The notes below the pieces were generated by a model, which saw only the letters and a list, made by a program, of their open reading frames with translations, had not been told where the DNA came from and searched no databases. The position numbers and the translations under genes were made by a program. From a virus (lineage: Duplodnaviria; Heunggongvirae; Uroviricota; Caudoviricetes), in IMG/VR virus record IMGVR_UViG_2529292726_000023, positions 1 to 15,263 of that record: a stretch of 15,263 nucleotides of DNA; one strand, written 5' to 3'. Shown here piece after piece: positions 1,554-10,490 of this stretch. Within the stretch, counting starts at the first letter, position 1, and each line of letters opens with the position of its first letter.

Positions 1554-2246
1554 TTAATTGTGTCGCTTAAGGGTTTGTGACTGGCTGATTAAGACCTTTC
1601 CAAAGACCATAAACCGGTGTTCATTTTCGCTGGTAATTCCCCATTCACGGTAAATCTGGTTATCAGAAATCACCAGTAGTTTGTCAGGTATCATTTGCAG
1701 TCGTTTGACATAAATTTTATCATCAAAACCAAATACATAGATACCATCTCCATCAAACTGATTGATACTGACATCAACGAAGATGAGATCTCCTGGCTCA
1801 ATGGTTGGACACATACTGTCCCCACGAACGTTGATAACTTTAATGTGATTGGCTGGTCGTCCGCCAAACATCGATACAGCATTATCAGTTCTGTATTCAA
1901 TGGCATGAATCACATCAATGACATCACCGCCCTGGATAAGGCCATTTCCCGCACTGGCACTGACATCCAGCATTTCAATACGGAATACATCCTTCACCTG
2001 CGCAACATCCTCACTAATACTGTTTTTACATACAGTATTACTTTTGAAGTCTGAGGTAAAGAGATCAGCAATATCAACACCTAAGCTCCTGGCAATATTA
2101 CTCAGGGCTTGTTCAGTGAATTGTTTCTGCTTACCTGTTTCCAGGCGCGAGATATTCGCCGCATCCACTCCTATTGCTTCAGCGAGATCGGCGATTTTCA
2201 TGTTCTTCGCCTGGCGAAGTTGTCTGACTCGATTTCCTATGTTCAT
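1554..2246 (-). CDS. CI-like prophage repressor, 230 aa: N-terminal XRE-type HTH plus C-terminal S24 (LexA-like) self-cleaving peptidase domain
   Basis: MNIGNRVRQLRQAKNMKIADLAEAIGVDAANISRLETGK HTH; C-terminal GDSMCPTIEPGDLIFVD with downstream KRLQ consistent with the Ser/Lys dyad; divergent from a Cro-like gene. Confidence 0.9.
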   Translation of the reverse strand: MNIGNRVRQLRQAKNMKIADLAEAIGVDAANISRLETGKQKQFTEQALSNIARSLGVDIADLFTSDFKSNTVCKNSISEDVAQVKDVFRIEMLDVSASAGNGLIQGGDVIDVIHAIEYRTDNAVSMFGGRPANHIKVINVRGDSMCPTIEPGDLIFVDVSINQFDGDGIYVFGFDDKIYVKRLQMIPDKLLVISDNQIYREWGITSENEHRFMVFGKVLISQSQTLKRHN

Positions 2247-2604: not shown

Positions 2605-3148
2605 GCATCACTGGAAAGTGGAAAAACAACCTGAGTGGTACGTGAAAGCTATCAGAAAAACTATCGCGGCATTGCCAGGTGGTTACGCTGAAGCTGCTGA
2701 CTGGCTGGATGTAACAGAGAACGCATTATTTAACCGCCTTCGTGCCGATGGCGATCAGTTTTTTCCGTTGGGATGGGCAATGGTTTTACAGCGTGCGGCT
2801 GGTACTCACCACATTGCGGATGCTGTCGCACAGTCTGCTGGTGGGGTGTTTGTATCACTTCCTGAAATTGAGGAAGTAGAGAACGCCGATATAAACCAGC
2901 GCCTGCTGGAAGTCATCGAACAGATCGGGAGTTACTCAAAGCAGATTCGTTCGGCAATCGAAGACGGGGTAGTGGAGCCACATGAGCAGACAGCAATTAA
3001 TGATGAGTTGTATCTGTCGATTTCGAAGCTCCAGGAACATGCGGCACTGGTCTACAAAATTTTCTGCGTTCCAGAAAAGAGTGACGCCCGCGAGTGTGCA
3101 GCTCCGGGCGTCGTGGCGTTTTGTGTCTGTGGAGAAACTAACGCATGA
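2597..3148 (+). CDS. Hypothetical early regulatory protein in the CII position, 183 aa; family uncertain (possibly CII/CP76-like)
   Basis: GTG start with AGGAGG RBS 6 nt upstream, overlapping the cro stop; stop overlaps the next start (ATGA). Family assignment is from position and memory only. Confidence 0.5.
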   Translation: MGKHHWKVEKQPEWYVKAIRKTIAALPGGYAEAADWLDVTENALFNRLRADGDQFFPLGWAMVLQRAAGTHHIADAVAQSAGGVFVSLPEIEEVENADINQRLLEVIEQIGSYSKQIRSAIEDGVVEPHEQTAINDELYLSISKLQEHAALVYKIFCVPEKSDARECAAPGVVAFCVCGETNA

Positions 3149-3750
3149 ACAGTTTAACGGCAAATAACCGTTGGTCGCAACAGCTGGTGGTCCGCGTGGC
3201 TGAACACCTGTTGTTACGGCATGAATGCAGATTACCAAATCACCTGGCTGTAAGTAACCACAGAGAACTTTACCTGACTGTGGGGGGCGAGTTGTGCAGG
3301 AACTTAACCGCTGGTTTCGTGACGGAAGAGGACTTTATGTTCATGTTATTCGTTGGGAGCCAGAAACACAGCGCGTTATCTATCTTCGCAAAGACTACCC
3401 GCATGAGTGCTTTAGTCCTTTGTGGAAATTCAGGCGTGATTTTGTTGAGTGTGAAGGACCACCAGCACATTGATTCTGCCATTCCGGGACGTTACACTGT
3501 TCAGGCACCTTATAAAGCGGGTGCCGGGCGTGGAAACCCGGAATTCACCAAAGCGCACAACCGCGCTCTTGCGGTTTTTTTGTGTCATGAGCAGCATTAC
3601 GCCCAAATTATGGTGGGGCGTGCAGGGCCAACTTCGGTTGGGCCGGGTTCTTTGGTGACCGGTATTTCCACCCCTGTACGTCTCACCACCAATAAGGTCG
3701 TGGAAAGCCTTGGTGGTGAGTTATTTAAAATCACCAAAGAGGCTGCCATC
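3145..3750 (+). other. Ambiguous coding region upstream of rha, in frame with it (no stop between 3145 and 4296); possible N-terminal extension, fusion or decayed gene
   Basis: ATG at 3145 is translationally coupled (ATGA) to the upstream gene, but the Rha domain has its own RBS and start at 3751. An alternative-frame ORF at 3294-3473 has a GGGGGG RBS 6 nt before its GTG. Confidence 0.35.
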
Positions 3751-4296
3751 ATGGCTACGATCCCAACCCTCACTCAACCTGAAATTGCCATCGTTGATGG
3801 TCAGGCTGTTACTTCATCCCTGGCTGTTGCCAACTTCTTCTCCAAACGTCATGACGATGTACTGAAAAAGATCCGCACGCTTGAATGCTCCGCATCATTC
3901 ACTGCCCGCAATTTTTCGGTGAGTGATTACACCGATTGCACAGGCCGCAAACTACCTTGCTATCAAATAACCCGCGACGGCTTTGCGTTTCTTGCTATGG
4001 GTTTCACGGGTAAACGTGCTGCCCAGTTCAAAGAGGCATACATCAATGCCTTTAACCAGATGGAGAAACAGCTTTCAAGGCCCGCTGTACCGAGCGACGT
4101 TGCACATAACGCCAGCGTTCTCTGTTCCTACATTTCATCAATTCATCAGGTCTGGCTGCAGCAGCTTTATCCTATGTTGGCAAAAGCCGAATCTCCGCTG
4201 GCTGTTAGCTTATATGACTATATTAATGATGCTTCGGCGCTGGCCTGCCTCATAAATTTGTCGCTGAACCCTTCAGAGGTAAGGGGGCGCAAATGA
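3751..4296 (+). CDS. Rha family phage regulatory protein, 181 aa
   Basis: MATIPTLTQPEIAIVDGQAVTSSLAVANFFSKRHDDVLKKIRTL matches the Rha domain N-terminal signature; AAAGAGG RBS 8 nt upstream of ATG 3751. May instead be the C-terminal part of a 383-aa ORF starting at 3145. Confidence 0.8.
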   Translation: MATIPTLTQPEIAIVDGQAVTSSLAVANFFSKRHDDVLKKIRTLECSASFTARNFSVSDYTDCTGRKLPCYQITRDGFAFLAMGFTGKRAAQFKEAYINAFNQMEKQLSRPAVPSDVAHNASVLCSYISSIHQVWLQQLYPMLAKAESPLAVSLYDYINDASALACLINLSLNPSEVRGRK

Positions 4297-4517: not shown

Positions 4518-5332
4518 GTATGGAGCTGATGGTTAAAGCGATGAAAATTCGAGTGGGTAATCCATTGCGAAAACTGGTTCTGATCAAGCTGGCTGATAAT
4601 GCCAGCGATCAGGGTGAGTGCTGGCCCAGCTACCAGCATATTGCTGACCAGTGCGAGATTAGCAAACGTTCTGTGATGAATCATATTGCGGCCCTTTGTG
4701 AGTCCGGGCTGGTAAAAAAAGTCACCCGGAAAGGTGAAAAAGGTAACTCAAGTAATATCTATCTCCTTCATCTGGATGGTGCAGGAGATTCACTAGGGGG
4801 TAGTGCAAATAATTCACTATCTGGTGCAGCAAATTCACCAGGTAGTGCAGGAGTTGCACCAGGGGGTAGTGCAGGAGATTCACCCAGAACCAGTCACTCT
4901 TTTGAACCAGTCAAAGAACCAGTCAATGAACCAATAGCTGTTGGTGCATCAGTTGATGAGTCCGTGCGAGTTCGTTCAAACCGACCGGAATATTCTCCGG
5001 AGTTTGAGCAGGCATGGCTGGCATATCCCAAACGTGCTGGTGGCAATTCAAAATCTGCAGCCTTCAAAGCCTGGAAAGCCCGTTTGAATGAGGGGGTAAA
5101 CCCCGAAACCATGCTGGAAGGTGTGAAACGCTATGCGGGCTGGGTATCTGCAATGGGTAACAGCGGCACACAATTTGTGAAACAGGCTGTCACGTTCTTT
5201 GGTCCGGATCGTCATTTCGAAGAATCCTGGGAAGTTCCTGCGGTATCTGCAGCCAGACGTGAGGACCCGTACTTCAAATCCAGTTACGACAACGTGGACT
5301 ACAGCCAGATCCCGGCAGGATTCAGGGGGTGA
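4514..5332 (+). CDS. O-like replication initiator candidate, 272 aa: N-terminal winged-HTH DNA-binding domain, Gly/Ser/Ala-rich linker, conserved C-terminal domain
   Basis: N-terminus LRKLVLIKLADNASDQGECWPSYQHIADQCEISKRSVMNHIAALCESGLVKK resembles phage replication-protein HTH domains; the linker coincides with iteron-like DNA repeats, as in lambda O/ori. Confidence 0.6.
   Translation: MSMELMVKAMKIRVGNPLRKLVLIKLADNASDQGECWPSYQHIADQCEISKRSVMNHIAALCESGLVKKVTRKGEKGNSSNIYLLHLDGAGDSLGGSANNSLSGAANSPGSAGVAPGGSAGDSPRTSHSFEPVKEPVNEPIAVGASVDESVRVRSNRPEYSPEFEQAWLAYPKRAGGNSKSAAFKAWKARLNEGVNPETMLEGVKRYAGWVSAMGNSGTQFVKQAVTFFGPDRHFEESWEVPAVSAARREDPYFKSSYDNVDYSQIPAGFRG
4778..4935. repeat. Iteron-like direct repeats inside the replication gene (candidate origin of replication)
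   Basis: Repeated units GGTAGTGCA (x3), GTGCAGGAGATTCAC (x2), ATTCAC (x4), then AACCAGTCA (x3) within about 160 bp. Confidence 0.5.
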
Positions 5333-5334
5333 TC

Positions 5335-5823
5335 ATGAGTCTTTTGAATGACGTTCAGAAATTCATTGAAGCCCATCCGGGGTGTACTTCCGGAGACATT
5401 GCGGATGCTTTTGCAGGTTACTCACGGCAGCGCGTACTGCAGTCAGCAAGCAAGTTACGTCAGAGTGGGCGTGTGGCTCACCGTTGTGAAGGGGATACAC
5501 GCAGACATTTCCCGCGCCTGACTGAGAGAGCGCAGGAGCCGGAACCACAACCAGTTCGTGAAACCAGACCTGTGCGCAATTTCTATGTCGGCACTAACGA
5601 TCCCCGGGGGATTTTGTGCCTGACCCGCCAGGCTGAAGAACTGGAGTCAAGAGGCTTATACCGTCGTGCTGCAACCGTGTGGATGGCGGCATTCCGTGAA
5701 AGCCACTCCCAGCCAGAACGAAACAATTTTCTGGCGCGTCGTGAGCGGTGCTTACGGAAAAGCAGCAAGCGCGCTGCATCGGGTGAAGAGTGGTATCTGT
5801 CAGGGAATTACGTGGGGGCTTAA
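5335..5823 (+). CDS. PerC-like transcriptional regulator domain protein, about 162 aa
   Basis: C-terminal QAEELESRGLYRRAATVWMAAF...LARRERCL resembles the PerC/Pch motif; ATG 5335 has an AGGGGG RBS. The GTG at 5329 in the ORF track is less likely. Confidence 0.5.
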   Translation: MSLLNDVQKFIEAHPGCTSGDIADAFAGYSRQRVLQSASKLRQSGRVAHRCEGDTRRHFPRLTERAQEPEPQPVRETRPVRNFYVGTNDPRGILCLTRQAEELESRGLYRRAATVWMAAFRESHSQPERNNFLARRERCLRKSSKRAASGEEWYLSGNYVGA

Positions 5824-6476
5824 TGAGTAATAAATATTGCCAGGCGCTGGTGGAACTGCGGAACAAACCAGCCCATGAACTGAAGGACGTGGGCGATCAG
5901 TGGCGCACGCCGGACAACATTTTCTGGGGAATTAACACCCTGTTTGGCCCGTTTGTTCTGGATCTGTTCACTGACGGTGATAACGCCAAATGTGCTGCGT
6001 ATTACACGGCGGAAGACAACGCGCTGGCGCATGACTGGTCAGAACGTCTTGCGGAGCTTAAAGGTGCTGCCTTTGGTAATCCCCCATACAGCCGCGCCAG
6101 TCAGCATGAGGGGCAATACATCACCGGCATGCGTTACATCATGAAGCATGCCAGTGCCATGCGTGATAAGGGCGGGCGCTATGTTTTCCTGATCAAAGCT
6201 GCCACCAGCGAAGTTTGGTGGCCGGAAGATGCAGACCATATTGCTTTTATTCGCGGGCGTATTGGTTTTGAACTGCCTGCCTGGTTTATCCCGAAGGATG
6301 AGAAGCAGGTGCCGACAGGAGCGTTCTTCGCTGGTGCTATTGCTGTTTTCGACAAGACCTGGAAGGGACCGGCAATCAGCTACATCGGGCGCGATGAACT
6401 TGAGGCATGTGGTGAGGCCTTTCTGGCGCAGGTTCGCCAGCAGGCGGAAAAACTGGTCAGGGAGATGGCGGCATGA
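5823..6476 (+). CDS. Phage-type DNA N6-adenine methyltransferase, 217 aa
   Basis: MSNKYCQALVELRNKPAHELKDVGDQWRTPDNIFWGI... with WRTP and NPPY (FGNPPYSRA) motifs typical of the phage Dam family; start overlaps the upstream stop (TAATG). Confidence 0.85.
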   Translation: MSNKYCQALVELRNKPAHELKDVGDQWRTPDNIFWGINTLFGPFVLDLFTDGDNAKCAAYYTAEDNALAHDWSERLAELKGAAFGNPPYSRASQHEGQYITGMRYIMKHASAMRDKGGRYVFLIKAATSEVWWPEDADHIAFIRGRIGFELPAWFIPKDEKQVPTGAFFAGAIAVFDKTWKGPAISYIGRDELEACGEAFLAQVRQQAEKLVREMAA

Positions 6477-6799
6477 CGACGTTAACTCAATGCCAGCAGC
6501 AGGGGCTGGATATGCTGATTTCTTACCAGAAAGAACGTGGCTTCCCGCCAACCAATCAGGAGGTGGCAACCATGCTGGGATACCGTTCAGTGAATGCAGC
6601 GGTGGAGCATCTTCGCGCACTGGAGAAAAAAGGCGTCATCACGATAAAGCGTGGCGTGGCCCGGGGGATCACGCTTCATACCGCAGTGAAGGACGACGAC
6701 AGCGAAGCGGTCGGGATTATCCGCTCACTGCTTGCCGGTGAGGAAAACGCAAGGCTGCGTGCAACCCACTGGTTACATGAGAGGGGCCTGAAAGCATGA
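6473..6799 (+). CDS. LexA N-terminal DNA-binding-domain-like protein, 108 aa, with no peptidase domain
   Basis: LTQCQQQGLDMLISYQKERGFPPTNQEVATMLGYRSVNAAVEHLRALEKKGVITIKRGVARGITL parallels the LexA winged-helix domain; protein ends about 40 aa later without an S24 domain. Confidence 0.75.
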   Translation: MTTLTQCQQQGLDMLISYQKERGFPPTNQEVATMLGYRSVNAAVEHLRALEKKGVITIKRGVARGITLHTAVKDDDSEAVGIIRSLLAGEENARLRATHWLHERGLKA

Positions 6800-7185
6800 A
6801 GCTGATCCTGCCTTTTCCGCCCAGCGTGAACACGTACTGGCGACACCCCAACAAAGGGGCGTTTGCAGGTAAGAGCCTGATAAGCGCGGCGGGGCGCAAA
6901 TTCCAGAGCGCGGCGTGCGCAGCAATAGTTGAGCAGTTACGTCGTCTACCAAAACCAACGTCGGCACCTGCTTCAGTGGAGATCGTGTTGTTTCCTCCGG
7001 ATAACCGGATCCGCGATCTGGACAACTATAACAAGGCGCTGTTTGACGCGTTGACCCACGCGGGTGTGTGGGAAGACGACAGACAGGTGAAAAGAATGCT
7101 GGTGGAGTGGGGACCGGTTATCCCGAAAGGGAAGGTCGAGATCACCATCAGTAAGTACGAGAAAACGGCGGGTGCAGCCGCCTGA
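6796..7185 (+). CDS. rusA: RusA Holliday-junction resolvase, 129 aa
   Basis: MKLILPFPPSVNTYWRH...RDLDNYNKALFDALTHAGVWEDDRQV matches RusA conserved motifs; typical nin-region position. Confidence 0.9.
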   Translation: MKLILPFPPSVNTYWRHPNKGAFAGKSLISAAGRKFQSAACAAIVEQLRRLPKPTSAPASVEIVLFPPDNRIRDLDNYNKALFDALTHAGVWEDDRQVKRMLVEWGPVIPKGKVEITISKYEKTAGAAA

Positions 7186-9465: not shown

Positions 9466-9912
9466 TTAAGGTTTTAATTCATCAAGACGTTGTTGGATAG
9501 TGTTTTTGCTTGCGTTGTCTGTTATAGCCATTTGTTGTACTTGCCCCATTGCCATTTGAGTTTCCATCCACATATCGGCCCACACTTTTGTATCGTTATT
9601 AACTTGAGCGATAGTAAATCTGACTTTTGATACCGGGGTTGTTGAATAGGCATTTCCGATTAACATTTGTCCAAAAACAGCAGAGCCGCCTTCCAGTTCT
9701 TTACCACATATAACACTGCTGTTATCCGCGTTGTAAATTATCAACCCTCTACTATTGCAGTAATTCACAAGGGCATCTTTGACTTTATCTTTTGTCGTAT
9801 TTTGATAAACCCCCTCAGGTTTTCCTGATTGAGTTTTCTTTATCAATGGTACGGAAGAAGTACAACCTGAAATGATAGTTGCGCTAAGTAATAGTACAGT
9901 CATTTTATTCAT
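9466..9912 (-). CDS. Lipoprotein of unknown function, 148 aa, AT-rich moron between Q and the tRNA array
   Basis: N-terminus MNKMTVLLLSATIISGCTSS is a signal peptide with lipobox (ISGC); opposite strand to flanking late genes; local GC visibly lower than the neighbours. Confidence 0.7.
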   Translation of the reverse strand: MNKMTVLLLSATIISGCTSSVPLIKKTQSGKPEGVYQNTTKDKVKDALVNYCNSRGLIIYNADNSSVICGKELEGGSAVFGQMLIGNAYSTTPVSKVRFTIAQVNNDTKVWADMWMETQMAMGQVQQMAITDNASKNTIQQRLDELKP

Positions 9913-10180: not shown

Positions 10181-10256
10181 GGCCCTTTAGCTCAGTGGTG
10201 AGAGCGAGCGACTCATAATCGCCAGGTCGCTGGTTCAAATCCAGCAAGGGCCACCA
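10181..10256 (+). tRNA. tRNA with CAU anticodon, most like tRNA-Ile2 (lysidine type; a plain scan would call it Met)
   Basis: 76-nt cloverleaf GGCCCTTTAGCTCAGTGGTGAGAGCG...CTCATAA...GGTTCAAATCCAGCAAGGGCCACCA; anticodon CAT at 10214-10216; encoded CCA; resembles enterobacterial ileX/ileZ. Confidence 0.85.
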
Positions 10257-10257
10257 A

Positions 10258-10334
10258 CTGCCACTAGCTCATCAGGAAAGAGCGTCAACCCTTTAAGTTG
10301 AGAGTGCGAGGTTCGAGTCCCCGGTGGCGGTCCA
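10258..10334 (+). tRNA. tRNA-like gene with noncanonical anticodon loop CCTTTAA (position 33 is C); anticodon reads UUU (Lys) by standard numbering; identity uncertain, possibly a pseudo-tRNA
   Basis: Acceptor CTGCCAC/GTGGCGG (one G-U pair), D-stem GCTC/GAGC, anticodon stem TCAAC/GTTGA, T-loop TTCGAGT with one A-C mismatch in the T-stem, encoded CCA. Confidence 0.5.
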
Positions 10335-10336
10335 GT

Positions 10337-10412
<76 letters not shown>

Positions 10413-10415
10413 TGT

Positions 10416-10490
<75 letters not shown>

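What the first reader, a model, noticed from the sequence alone, without database searches (positions are those of the whole stretch)
6473..6799. LexA DNA-binding domain without the self-cleaving peptidase domain
The 108-aa product aligns to the LexA winged-helix domain but lacks the S24 protease and dimerisation domain. A protein like this could occupy SOS boxes or phage operators without being cleavable after DNA damage, or act as a dominant-negative partner, linking the prophage to the host SOS response in a way I cannot assign to a characterised mechanism. It is translationally coupled between Dam and RusA.
Basis: partly seen in the sequence, partly recalled or inferred. Interest (0 to 1): 0.6.

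Follow-up and report, generated by a model that had tools for sequence, protein, structure and literature searches.

The report
Uncleavable LexA-like protein in a prophage
This lambdoid prophage carries a small, very common but unstudied gene for a copy of the host SOS repressor's DNA-binding domain with no self-cleaving half, so DNA damage cannot switch it off; its DNA targets are unknown.

Summary
ORF 6473..6799 (+) encodes a 108-aa protein. Residues 1-65 are a full LexA winged-helix domain (Pfam PF01726, E=2e-17). They superpose on DNA-bound E. coli LexA at 1.0 A with 48% identity. There is no S24 peptidase domain. ATGA overlaps join the gene to Dam upstream and RusA downstream.

It is not a fragment. 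A conserved two-helix C-terminal tail replaces the peptidase domain. The family (PHROG 362) is under purifying selection (pN/pS 0.12). It occurs in 2233 of 5426 complete E. coli genomes and in phages SfV, SfII, mEp460, cdtI and Stx2a/Stx2c phages. PGAP already names it 'LexA family transcriptional regulator', but I found no functional study.

The gene sits in the delayed-early cro-to-Q operon. It is a dispensable 324-bp cassette and co-diverges with RusA down to 41% identity.

The family lacks R28 and E44, which are near-invariant in true LexAs, so its operator may differ from the SOS box. The window's only strong SOS box lies inside cI and occurs independently of this gene.

Best reading (about 0.4): a RecA-insensitive, LexA-type operator-binding regulator acting in lytic cells. 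The closest characterised precedent is the truncated LexA homologue gp6 of tectivirus GIL01, which is not the same family. Verdict: a new member of a known kind, of moderate interest.

The parts
6473..6799 (+). LexN: 108-aa LexA-N-terminal-domain-only protein (stop codon included)
   Evidence: ORF listed. PF01726 E=1.9e-17. PHROG 362 full length, E=2.4e-58. pN/pS 0.12 over 73 alleles.
6473..6676 (+). Winged helix-turn-helix, residues 1-68: helices 6-22, 28-35 and 40-52 (recognition helix SVNAAVEHLRAL), wing strands 56-58 and 66-68
   Evidence: AlphaFold model. Foldseek match to 3jso at rmsd 1.0 A, 48% identity. S39, N41, A42, E45, R64, G65 and I66 are shared with E. coli LexA.
6695..6781 (+). 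Family-specific C-terminal two-helix hairpin (residues 75-87 and 93-103), standing where LexA has its S24 domain; a possible dimerisation module (inferred)
   Evidence: pLDDT 87-88 for this stretch. Conserved down to 37% identity, with A97 and L101 invariant. No Pfam match.
6459..6464 (+). Shine-Dalgarno-like AGGGAG, 8 nt before the ATG, inside the end of the Dam gene
   Evidence: Read directly from the sequence.
6473..6476 (+). ATGA overlap of the Dam stop and LexN start; left copy of the GCATGA repeat (6471..6476) that bounds the cassette
   Evidence: LexN-less relatives carry a single GCATGA joining Dam to RusA.
6796..6799 (+). ATGA overlap of the LexN stop and RusA start; right copy of the GCATGA repeat (6794..6799)
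   Evidence: A 4-nt overlap with RusA is kept in homologues of 41-64% identity.
5823..6476 (+). Phage Dam (N6-adenine methyltransferase), the upstream coupled gene. The ORF tool starts it at GTG 5790, but profile matches begin at residue 12, which is ATG 5823.
   Evidence: PF05869 E=2.4e-45. PADLOC MTase_II aligns residues 12-228 to 1-217.
6796..7185 (+). RusA Holliday-junction resolvase, the downstream coupled gene and conserved partner of LexN
   Evidence: PF05866 E=1.3e-14. PHROG 34 E=1e-57. Co-divergence with LexN.

Best explanation
LexN is a phage accessory transcription regulator descended from the DNA-binding domain of an enterobacterial LexA.

Shown:
- It keeps the complete LexA winged helix and lacks the S24 peptidase domain and any conserved Ala-Gly cleavage site. 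RecA* therefore cannot inactivate it by the LexA route.
- It has a conserved two-helix C-terminal tail.
- It is under purifying selection.
- It is encoded in the tightly packed cro-cII-O-PerC-Dam-LexN-RusA-KilA-N-DUF968-Q operon, with overlapping start and stop codons and no promoter of its own detected.

Inferred:
- It is made as a delayed-early product once PR is derepressed, that is, in induced or newly infected cells.
- The tail replaces the S24 domain as the dimerisation module.
- The dimer binds palindromic operators of the LexA type. These are either SOS boxes themselves or a close family-specific variant, given the loss of R28 and E44.
- It represses the adjacent promoters regardless of DNA damage.

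The gene moves independently of every other phage module except RusA, and it is dispensable. Its targets are therefore more likely to be host operators conserved across Enterobacterales than phage operators. That would make it an uncleavable stand-in for LexA, putting SOS-controlled genes back under repression at a time when the host LexA pool has been destroyed. Such genes include host SOS toxins and mutagenic polymerases, LexA-controlled genes of rival prophages, and SOS-boxed phage morons.
For: - Domain and fold.
- DNA-reading residues: S39, N41, A42 and E45, which are four of the five E. coli LexA residues reported to be involved in DNA binding (PMC13416735, citing Knegtel 1995), plus wing R64-G65-I66, are kept. 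They are invariant or nearly so across the family. Identity to LexA is concentrated in the recognition helix (8/13) and wing (7/13) rather than helix 1 (3/17); I counted this from the alignment.
- Conserved tail: with high model confidence.
- Selection: pN/pS 0.12 over 140 intact copies and 73 alleles.
- Operon position, gene overlaps and absence of a sigma-70-like promoter nearby.
- Dispensable cassette: 6 of 63 phages with the same immunity region join Dam directly to RusA.
- Independence from immunity type: only 21 of 54 LexN loci carry the cI allele of this window.
- Real SOS boxes are frequent in these phage lineages, so LexA-type control is part of their biology.
- Precedents: lambda NinH, a nin-region mimic of host Fis that keeps a Fis-related site preference (PMC7166090), and GIL01 gp6, a truncated LexA homologue that binds DNA (PMC6182141).
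Against: - No binding data exist.
- R28 and E44 are present in 15/15 and 14/15 of the closest longer LexA-type proteins but in 0/19 LexN family members. Canonical SOS-box recognition may therefore be weakened or altered.
- GIL01 gp6 shows that a LexA domain 44% identical to its host's can evolve a different operator and even activate transcription.
- Dimerisation through the tail is only inferred.
- The strong SOS boxes found in these phages occur with or without LexN, so they give no co-occurrence support.
- Expression timing is inferred from gene order only.
Confidence: 0.4

Rival explanations
1. gp6-like regulator with its own operator. LexN would have diverged from LexA to recognise a distinct palindrome. 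It would control, and possibly activate, a small set of phage or host promoters unrelated to the SOS regulon, timing gene expression during lytic growth.
For: GIL01 gp6 is a characterised truncated LexA homologue. It binds GaCACAnnTGTGaC at -43.5 of the late promoter P3 and activates it (PMC6182141). LexN has lost the LexA-invariant residues R28 and E44 family-wide. Apart from the cI-internal box, no SOS-like site exists in the window, even when single half-site positions are masked.
Against: LexN is dispensable (clean deletions and one frameshift), whereas gp6 is required for late expression. Late genes here have a Q antiterminator. No phage module other than RusA is co-inherited with LexN, so a phage-borne operator has no obvious home. 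No candidate palindrome stood out. LexN and gp6 are not the same family.
Confidence: 0.25
2. Recombination accessory of RusA. LexN would be a small DNA-binding, perhaps architectural, partner that works with the Holliday-junction resolvase encoded immediately downstream. It would target or restrain junction resolution rather than regulate transcription.
For: LexN lies directly upstream of RusA with a 4-nt overlap in the window, mEp390, and homologues of 41-64% identity. One small ORF intervenes in two others. LexN and RusA co-diverge: LexN 64/46/45/41% against RusA 90/72-76/66%. As an analogy, lambda NinH is a small DNA-binding mimic of Fis encoded in the nin region (PMC7166090); that it sits next to the nuclease gene ninG is my recollection, not checked here.
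Against: RusA occurs without LexN in otherwise identical phages and in many other phages. A Klebsiella phage has a LexN-like gene without an adjacent RusA. Every gene in this operon overlaps its neighbour, so coupling is not specific. A sequence-specific LexA-type recognition helix is conserved, which architectural proteins do not need.
Confidence: 0.15
3. Protein-level interference with the SOS machinery. LexN would act as a decoy or dominant-negative that binds LexA or RecA* rather than DNA.
For: Phages do encode such modulators, for example GIL01 gp7 binding LexA (PMC6182141) and DinI-like genes in related phages. The tail region aligns weakly to the LexA hinge and cleavage region.
Against: The LexA dimer interface and the RecA*-engaging surface lie in the missing C-terminal domain (established knowledge of LexA). 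The Ala-Gly is not conserved. Conservation is strongest in the DNA-reading helix and wing.
Confidence: 0.05
4. Decaying remnant of a captured lexA gene with no function.
For: The gene is dispensable. One frameshifted copy (L136) and one truncated copy (L122) were seen.
Against: pN/pS is 0.12. 140 of 142 copies are intact. Full-length conservation, including the tail, extends down to 37% identity. The gene is present in 2233 of 5426 E. coli genomes.
Confidence: 0.02

Closest known systems
E. coli LexA repressor (TIGR00498; PDB 1lea, 3jso)
   Same: The N-terminal winged helix is 48-50% identical and matches the DNA-bound structure at rmsd 1.0 A. S39, N41, A42, E45 and wing R64-G65-I66 are retained.
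   Different: There is no S24 peptidase and dimerisation domain, no Ser/Lys dyad and no conserved Ala-Gly site. R28 and E44 are replaced. A 40-residue helical tail stands in place of the S24 domain. The gene is phage-borne and sits mid-operon rather than being autoregulated.
GIL01 (Betatectivirus) gp6, a truncated LexA homologue that activates late promoter P3 (PMC6182141)
   Same: A phage-encoded LexA DNA-binding domain without the cleavable domain, produced from an early operon in a temperate phage whose induction is SOS-linked.
   Different: gp6 is 66 aa with no tail. It shows no pairwise BLASTP similarity to LexN and belongs to PHROG 3502, not 362, so it is probably an independent capture from a different host lineage. 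gp6 is required for late transcription. LexN is dispensable, and this phage has its own CI, Cro and Q.
Bacteriophage lambda NinH, a nin-region mimic of the host nucleoid protein Fis (PMC7166090)
   Same: A small accessory gene in the nin region of a lambdoid phage, copying only the DNA-binding part of a global host DNA-binding protein. NinH is dimeric and prefers a site related to its host model's.
   Different: The fold is different (Fis-type HTH versus LexA winged helix) and there is no sequence relationship. NinH bends DNA non-specifically as well.
Short LexA_DNA_bind-only proteins of other phages (PHROG 362, 24920, 3502; BFVD entries)
   Same: Many 65-150 aa phage proteins consist of a LexA winged helix alone. 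LexN is a full-length member of PHROG 362, 'transcriptional repressor'.
   Different: None of these is characterised apart from gp6. The PHROG label is an annotation, not a tested function.

Membership tests
Canonical LexA repressor (TIGR00498 equivalog) | N-terminal LexA winged-helix DNA-binding domain (PF01726) | tested here: met
   PF01726 matches residues 1-65 of 65 model positions, E=1.9e-17. Foldseek match to 3jso at rmsd 1.0 A.
Canonical LexA repressor (TIGR00498 equivalog) | C-terminal S24 peptidase and dimerisation domain with the Ser119/Lys156 dyad | tested here: not met
   The protein ends at residue 108. No PF00717 hit. TIGR00498 scores 65.8 bits against a cutoff of 110.95 and covers only model positions 1-91 of 203. 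The next gene is RusA.
Canonical LexA repressor (TIGR00498 equivalog) | Conserved Ala84-Gly85 self-cleavage site | tested here: not met
   An A88-G89 exists in this copy, but it becomes AN or VG in close relatives and is absent in distant ones. It is modelled at a helix end or loop of the tail.
Canonical LexA repressor (TIGR00498 equivalog) | Binds the SOS box CTGT-N8-ACAG | not testable with these tools
   Indirect evidence only. Four of five reported DNA-contact residues are kept (S39, N41, A42, E45). E44 and R28 are lost family-wide, although they are present in 14/15 and 15/15 LexA-type relatives.
PHROG 362 (phage 'transcriptional repressor', LexA-DBD plus tail) | Full-length profile match | tested here: met
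   E=2.4e-58; residues 1-107 align to profile positions 1-105 of 106.
GIL01 gp6-type truncated LexA activator | LexA DNA-binding domain only, phage-encoded | tested here: met
GIL01 gp6-type truncated LexA activator | Sequence membership in the gp6 family | tested here: not met
   No BLASTP alignment at E<=100. gp6's best PHROG is 3502 (E=1.8e-21), and it scores only 25 bits against PHROG 362.
GIL01 gp6-type truncated LexA activator | Binds a palindrome overlapping the -35 of the late promoter and activates it; works alongside host LexA plus gp7 as the lysogeny repressor | tested here: inconclusive
   Binding and activation are not testable here. The context differs: this phage has its own CI (S24), Cro, CII and Q, and no gp7-like partner was seen.
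Lambdoid nin-region accessory genes | Located between the replication genes and Q in the PR operon, and dispensable | tested here: met
   Gene order O-PerC-Dam-LexN-RusA-KilA-N-DUF968-Q. Clean presence/absence polymorphism.

The most novel reading that the evidence does not exclude
A non-cleavable LexA paralogue carried by lambdoid prophages, including Stx2a and Stx2c phages, is present in about 41% of complete E. coli genomes. In this reading it acts as a phage-encoded SOS shut-off. Once the prophage is induced and host LexA is destroyed, LexN re-occupies SOS boxes. It silences SOS toxins, error-prone polymerases and the LexA-controlled antirepressors of competing prophages. This would shape burst size, mutagenesis, inter-prophage competition and Shiga-toxin phage output.
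Probability: 0.25. Interest if true: 0.7.

Novelty: new member of a known kind. Interest (0 to 1): 0.42.

Why it matters
The SOS response governs prophage induction, Shiga-toxin release, mutagenesis and antibiotic tolerance in E. coli. It is assumed to be reset only by resynthesis of cleavable LexA. A LexA-type DNA binder that RecA* cannot remove sits in about two-fifths of sequenced E. coli genomes, often in several copies and in Stx2 phages. If it binds SOS-type operators, it would be an unaccounted input into that circuit.

The question is directly testable. One could run EMSA or ChIP-seq, use an SOS reporter in a lexA(Def) host, and compare the natural LexN-plus and LexN-minus phage variants, which differ by a clean 324-bp cassette.

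If LexN instead binds its own operator or assists RusA, it is an ordinary accessory nin-region gene.

Tried and rejected
1. Co-occurrence of LexN with phage SOS boxes. I scanned 80 LexN loci and 80 loci sharing this cI allele with a position-specific scoring matrix (PSSM). The matrix was built from 20 E. coli boxes recalled from memory, so scores are indicative only. Strong boxes exist but are independent of LexN, so they give no support for a dedicated LexN-box pair.
2. Relaxed SOS-like sites, with one half-site position masked, and perfect 6-bp-arm palindromes in intergenic DNA. Nothing beyond the cI-internal box and terminators was found.
3. An own promoter for Dam-LexN, as the SfV record annotates. 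No sigma-70-like match lies near the gene in this window.
4. A trans-cleavable Ala-Gly site in the tail. Rejected because it is not conserved.
5. A defence-system role. There was no meaningful PADLOC hit.
6. The tail as a known domain. No Pfam match. Foldseek hits cover only the winged helix.
7. Restriction-modification controller-protein analogy (methyltransferase, small HTH protein, nuclease). Rejected because RusA is a junction resolvase, the upstream gene varies (Dam, C5-methyltransferase, replication protein, PerC), and LexN-less variants are common.
8. Literature. Six searches found no study of this enterobacterial family, and the LexA-DNA structure paper was not held.
9. Searches that could not run or found little. 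The alignment-based locus search failed for lack of conserved blocks. The genome-contig scan found only 7 loci. The afdb50 library was unavailable. A homodimer or LexN-RusA complex could not be predicted with the tools allowed.

Full report
**Observation.** An ATG-initiated ORF of 108 codons occupies exactly 6473..6799 on the + strand. Its start codon overlaps the Dam stop (GCATGA), and its stop overlaps the RusA start (GCATGA). An AGGGAG ribosome-binding sequence lies 8 nt upstream. Pfam PF01726 (LexA_DNA_bind) matches residues 1-65 end to end (E=1.9e-17), and no Peptidase_S24 is present. The full-length LexA equivalog TIGR00498 matches only its first 91 of 203 positions and falls below its cutoff, at 65.8 against 110.95 bits. 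The closest solved structure by sequence is the E. coli LexA N-terminal domain (E=7e-15). An AlphaFold model built on a 19-sequence alignment (pLDDT 83) superposes on DNA-bound LexA (3jso) at 1.0 A with 48% identity.

**The protein is a complete, selected product, not a fragment.** After the wing (strands 56-58 and 66-68) and a short disordered linker (residues 69-75), the model has two further helices, 75-87 and 93-103, with pLDDT 87-88. This tail is conserved in relatives down to 37% identity. Its pattern is EAvxIIRaLLxxxxxArxRAxxWLxxRG, with A97 and L101 invariant. It has no Pfam match. The whole protein is a full-length member of PHROG 362 (E=2e-58). Across the loci fetched here, 140 of 142 copies are intact. 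They comprise 73 DNA alleles encoding 34 proteins, with pN/pS = 0.12. Two-helix hairpins of this size are usually not stable alone. I therefore infer that the tail is the dimerisation module replacing the S24 domain. Other winged-helix regulators such as the Rrf2/IscR family use C-terminal helices this way; that is general knowledge, and a weak Rrf2 hit appears. This step is not shown.

**Non-cleavability.** The catalytic domain is absent. HMMER aligns LexN 'LLAGEE' to the LexA cleavage region 'VAAGEP'. However, the Ala-Gly becomes AN or VG in close relatives and disappears in distant ones. It is also modelled at a helix end. It is therefore not a conserved cleavage site.

**Context.** The window is the early-right arm of a lambdoid prophage. 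The genes are:
- CI with an S24 domain, 1554..2246 on the - strand
- Cro, CII and a Rha/Ash protein
- an O-like replication protein and a PerC-family protein
- Dam, LexN and RusA
- a KilA-N protein, a DUF968/HNH protein and Q
- four tRNAs and the lysis genes

From O to Q every gene overlaps or abuts its neighbour. No sigma-70-like promoter was found near LexN. The gene is therefore most simply a delayed-early product of the PR transcript; this is inferred.

DNA 97-98% identical over the Dam-LexN-RusA segment is found in phages mEp460, 1720a-02, Stx2a_1447, Stx2a_WGPS2 and phiSTEC1575-Stx2k and in fifteen Stx2c phages. LexN proteins 96-97% identical are encoded by SfII, SfIV, SfV (orf42) and cdtI. 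Annotations range from 'unknown' to 'LexA DNA binding domain protein' to the erroneous 'SOS-response repressor and protease LexA'. The gene is present at 95% identity or more in 2233 of 5426 complete E. coli genomes, with up to four copies per genome. PGAP names it 'LexA family transcriptional regulator'. Relatives occur in Citrobacter, Salmonella, Hafnia and Klebsiella.

**Two features of its inheritance are informative.**

First, LexN is a dispensable cassette. Among 63 IMG/VR loci that share this window's cI allele and extend far enough, 53 have intact LexN. Six join the Dam stop directly to the RusA start through a single GCATGA, one has a frameshift, one is truncated, and two carry other replacements. 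The 324-bp gene thus sits between two GCATGA repeats and is cleanly present or absent.

Second, the only constant partner is RusA. In homologues of 41-64% identity from other phages, the upstream gene varies: Dam, a C5-methyltransferase, a replication protein or PerC. LexN still lies immediately upstream of RusA with a 4-nt overlap. One small ORF intervenes in two cases, and RusA is absent nearby in one Klebsiella phage. The two proteins also co-diverge: LexN at 64, 46, 45 and 41% against RusA at 90, 72-76 and 66%.

**Search for targets.** I built a scoring matrix from 20 E. coli SOS boxes recalled from memory, so it is a lead and not a calibrated tool. It finds one outstanding site in the window, TACTGTTTTTACATACAGTA at 2018..2037. 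It scores 25.1, against 9.8 for the next best site and a maximum of 18.8 in 200 shuffles. The site lies inside the cI coding sequence, in the linker between the HTH and S24 domains. It is present in 80 of 80 loci with this cI allele. It sits at the same codon offset in CI homologues about 71% identical, in locus L167 and phage Eeyore, even though the surrounding linker has diverged. It is therefore selected as a DNA element.

The site is nevertheless independent of LexN. Eeyore and the six LexN-less phages keep it, and only 21 of 54 LexN loci with enough upstream sequence carry it. Other strong boxes recur in related phages:
- at the start of a methyltransferase gene between Q and the holin gene
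- upstream of a variant KilA-N gene
- as pairs before dinI

These also occur irrespective of LexN, and 35 of the 80 LexN loci have none in the sequence held. Masking single half-site positions revealed no relaxed SOS-like site in the window. The phage therefore offers a candidate operator but no co-occurrence evidence.

**DNA-reading residues.** Five E. coli LexA residues are reported to be involved in DNA binding: S39, N41, A42, E44 and E45 (PMC13416735, citing Knegtel 1995). LexN keeps S39, N41, A42 and E45, and also the wing residues R64-G65-I66. Identity to LexA is highest in the recognition helix and wing. However, E44 is hydrophobic (V, F, A, L, T or Y) in all 19 family members, and R28 is never arginine. 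Among the 15 closest longer LexA-type proteins, E44 is present in 14 and R28 in 15. This family-wide signature argues that affinity or specificity has shifted relative to LexA. By how much cannot be computed here.

**Comparison with known systems.** The nearest characterised case is gp6 of the tectivirus GIL01. It is a 66-aa truncated LexA homologue, 44% identical to its host's LexA domain. It binds its own palindrome at -43.5 of the late promoter and activates it (PMC6182141). LexN works like gp6 in being a phage-borne, uncleavable LexA domain, but it is not a member of that family. There is no pairwise alignment between them, the PHROG families differ, gp6 has no tail, and gp6 is essential for late expression whereas LexN is dispensable and this phage has its own Q. 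A second useful analogy is lambda NinH. It is a nin-region mimic of host Fis that dimerises and prefers a Fis-related site (PMC7166090). Short LexA-domain-only proteins are common in phage structure and sequence collections. I found no experimental paper on the enterobacterial family.

**Mechanism.** LexN travels independently of every phage module except RusA, is dispensable, and keeps a LexA-like reading head. I therefore favour a host-directed role (about 0.4). In this reading LexN is a RecA-insensitive dimer that binds SOS-type operators or a close variant of them. It would re-impose repression in induced cells whose LexA has been cleaved. The main rival is a gp6-like regulator with its own diverged operator (0.25), which the R28/E44 signature supports. 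Next is a role as a DNA-binding accessory of RusA (0.15), which the conserved and co-diverging gene pair supports. Protein-level interference with LexA or RecA (0.05) and a non-functional remnant (0.02) are unlikely.

**Verdict.** The object is already catalogued and extremely common, and a characterised precedent exists for the kind. It is a new, uncharacterised member of a known kind. Interest is moderate, chiefly because of its prevalence in E. coli and Stx phages, and because natural variants with and without the cassette make the SOS-shut-off hypothesis easy to test.

Noticed in passing
window 2018..2037 (inside cI, 1554..2246, - strand): A near-consensus SOS box, TACTGTTTTTACATACAGTA, lies within the CI repressor coding sequence, in the linker at codons 70-77. 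It is kept in 80/80 loci with this cI allele. It sits at the same 209-nt offset in CI homologues about 71% identical (L167: TACTGTTTATAAATACAGTA; phage Eeyore: CACTGGATTTACATACAGTA), while the flanking linker diverges. No adjacent promoter was found, and its role is unexplained; it could be a LexA roadblock on cI transcripts. It is independent of LexN.
   Followed up: yes
L003 (SfV) 34170; L004 (cdtI) 44083; many of L005-L166: A recurrent strong SOS box, TACTGTAAAAATAAACAGTG, overlaps the start of a DNA methyltransferase gene between Q and the holin gene in related phages. That is the position where stx sits in Stx phages. It is absent from this window.
   Followed up: partly
L027 10789; L041 12114; L078, L081, L083; L087 5886: An SOS box, TACTGTATTTATGAACAGTG, lies about 80 nt downstream of RusA. 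It occurs only in loci whose KilA-N gene is a 67%-identical variant, which suggests a LexA-controlled KilA-N (antirepressor-like) gene next to LexN-RusA in some phages.
   Followed up: partly
L004 (cdtI) 26720 and 26748; L002 (Stx2c phage) 49261 and 49289: Paired SOS boxes. In cdtI they lie in the gap between the dinI-like gene and the next ORF; the Stx2c record is unannotated.
   Followed up: no
window 10181..10490: A cluster of four tRNA genes (Met-CAT, Lys-TTT, Thr-TGT, Gly-TCC) lies between Q and the lysis genes.
   Followed up: no
window 9466..9912 (- strand): An antisense 148-aa ORF with no Pfam match lies just after Q. In a Klebsiella relative (L086 3994), the equivalent leftward genes have an SOS box at their upstream end.
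   Followed up: no
L174 3560: In a distant relative (LexN 41% identical), an SOS box, ACCTGTACATTCATACAGTA, lies in the gap between a divergent RNase-toxin/CdiI-like pair and the small ORF that heads the LexN-RusA-DUF968-Q run.
   Followed up: no
L136 5449..5771: A locus whose other early-right proteins (cro to Q) and CI are 99-100% identical to the window's carries a frameshifted LexN copy.
   Followed up: partly
window 5329..5823 and 3145..4296: A PerC-family activator gene and a 383-aa Ash+Rha fusion ORF lie in the same early operon. The Dam ORF as listed (GTG 5790) probably starts at ATG 5823, overlapping the PerC stop by one base.
   Followed up: no
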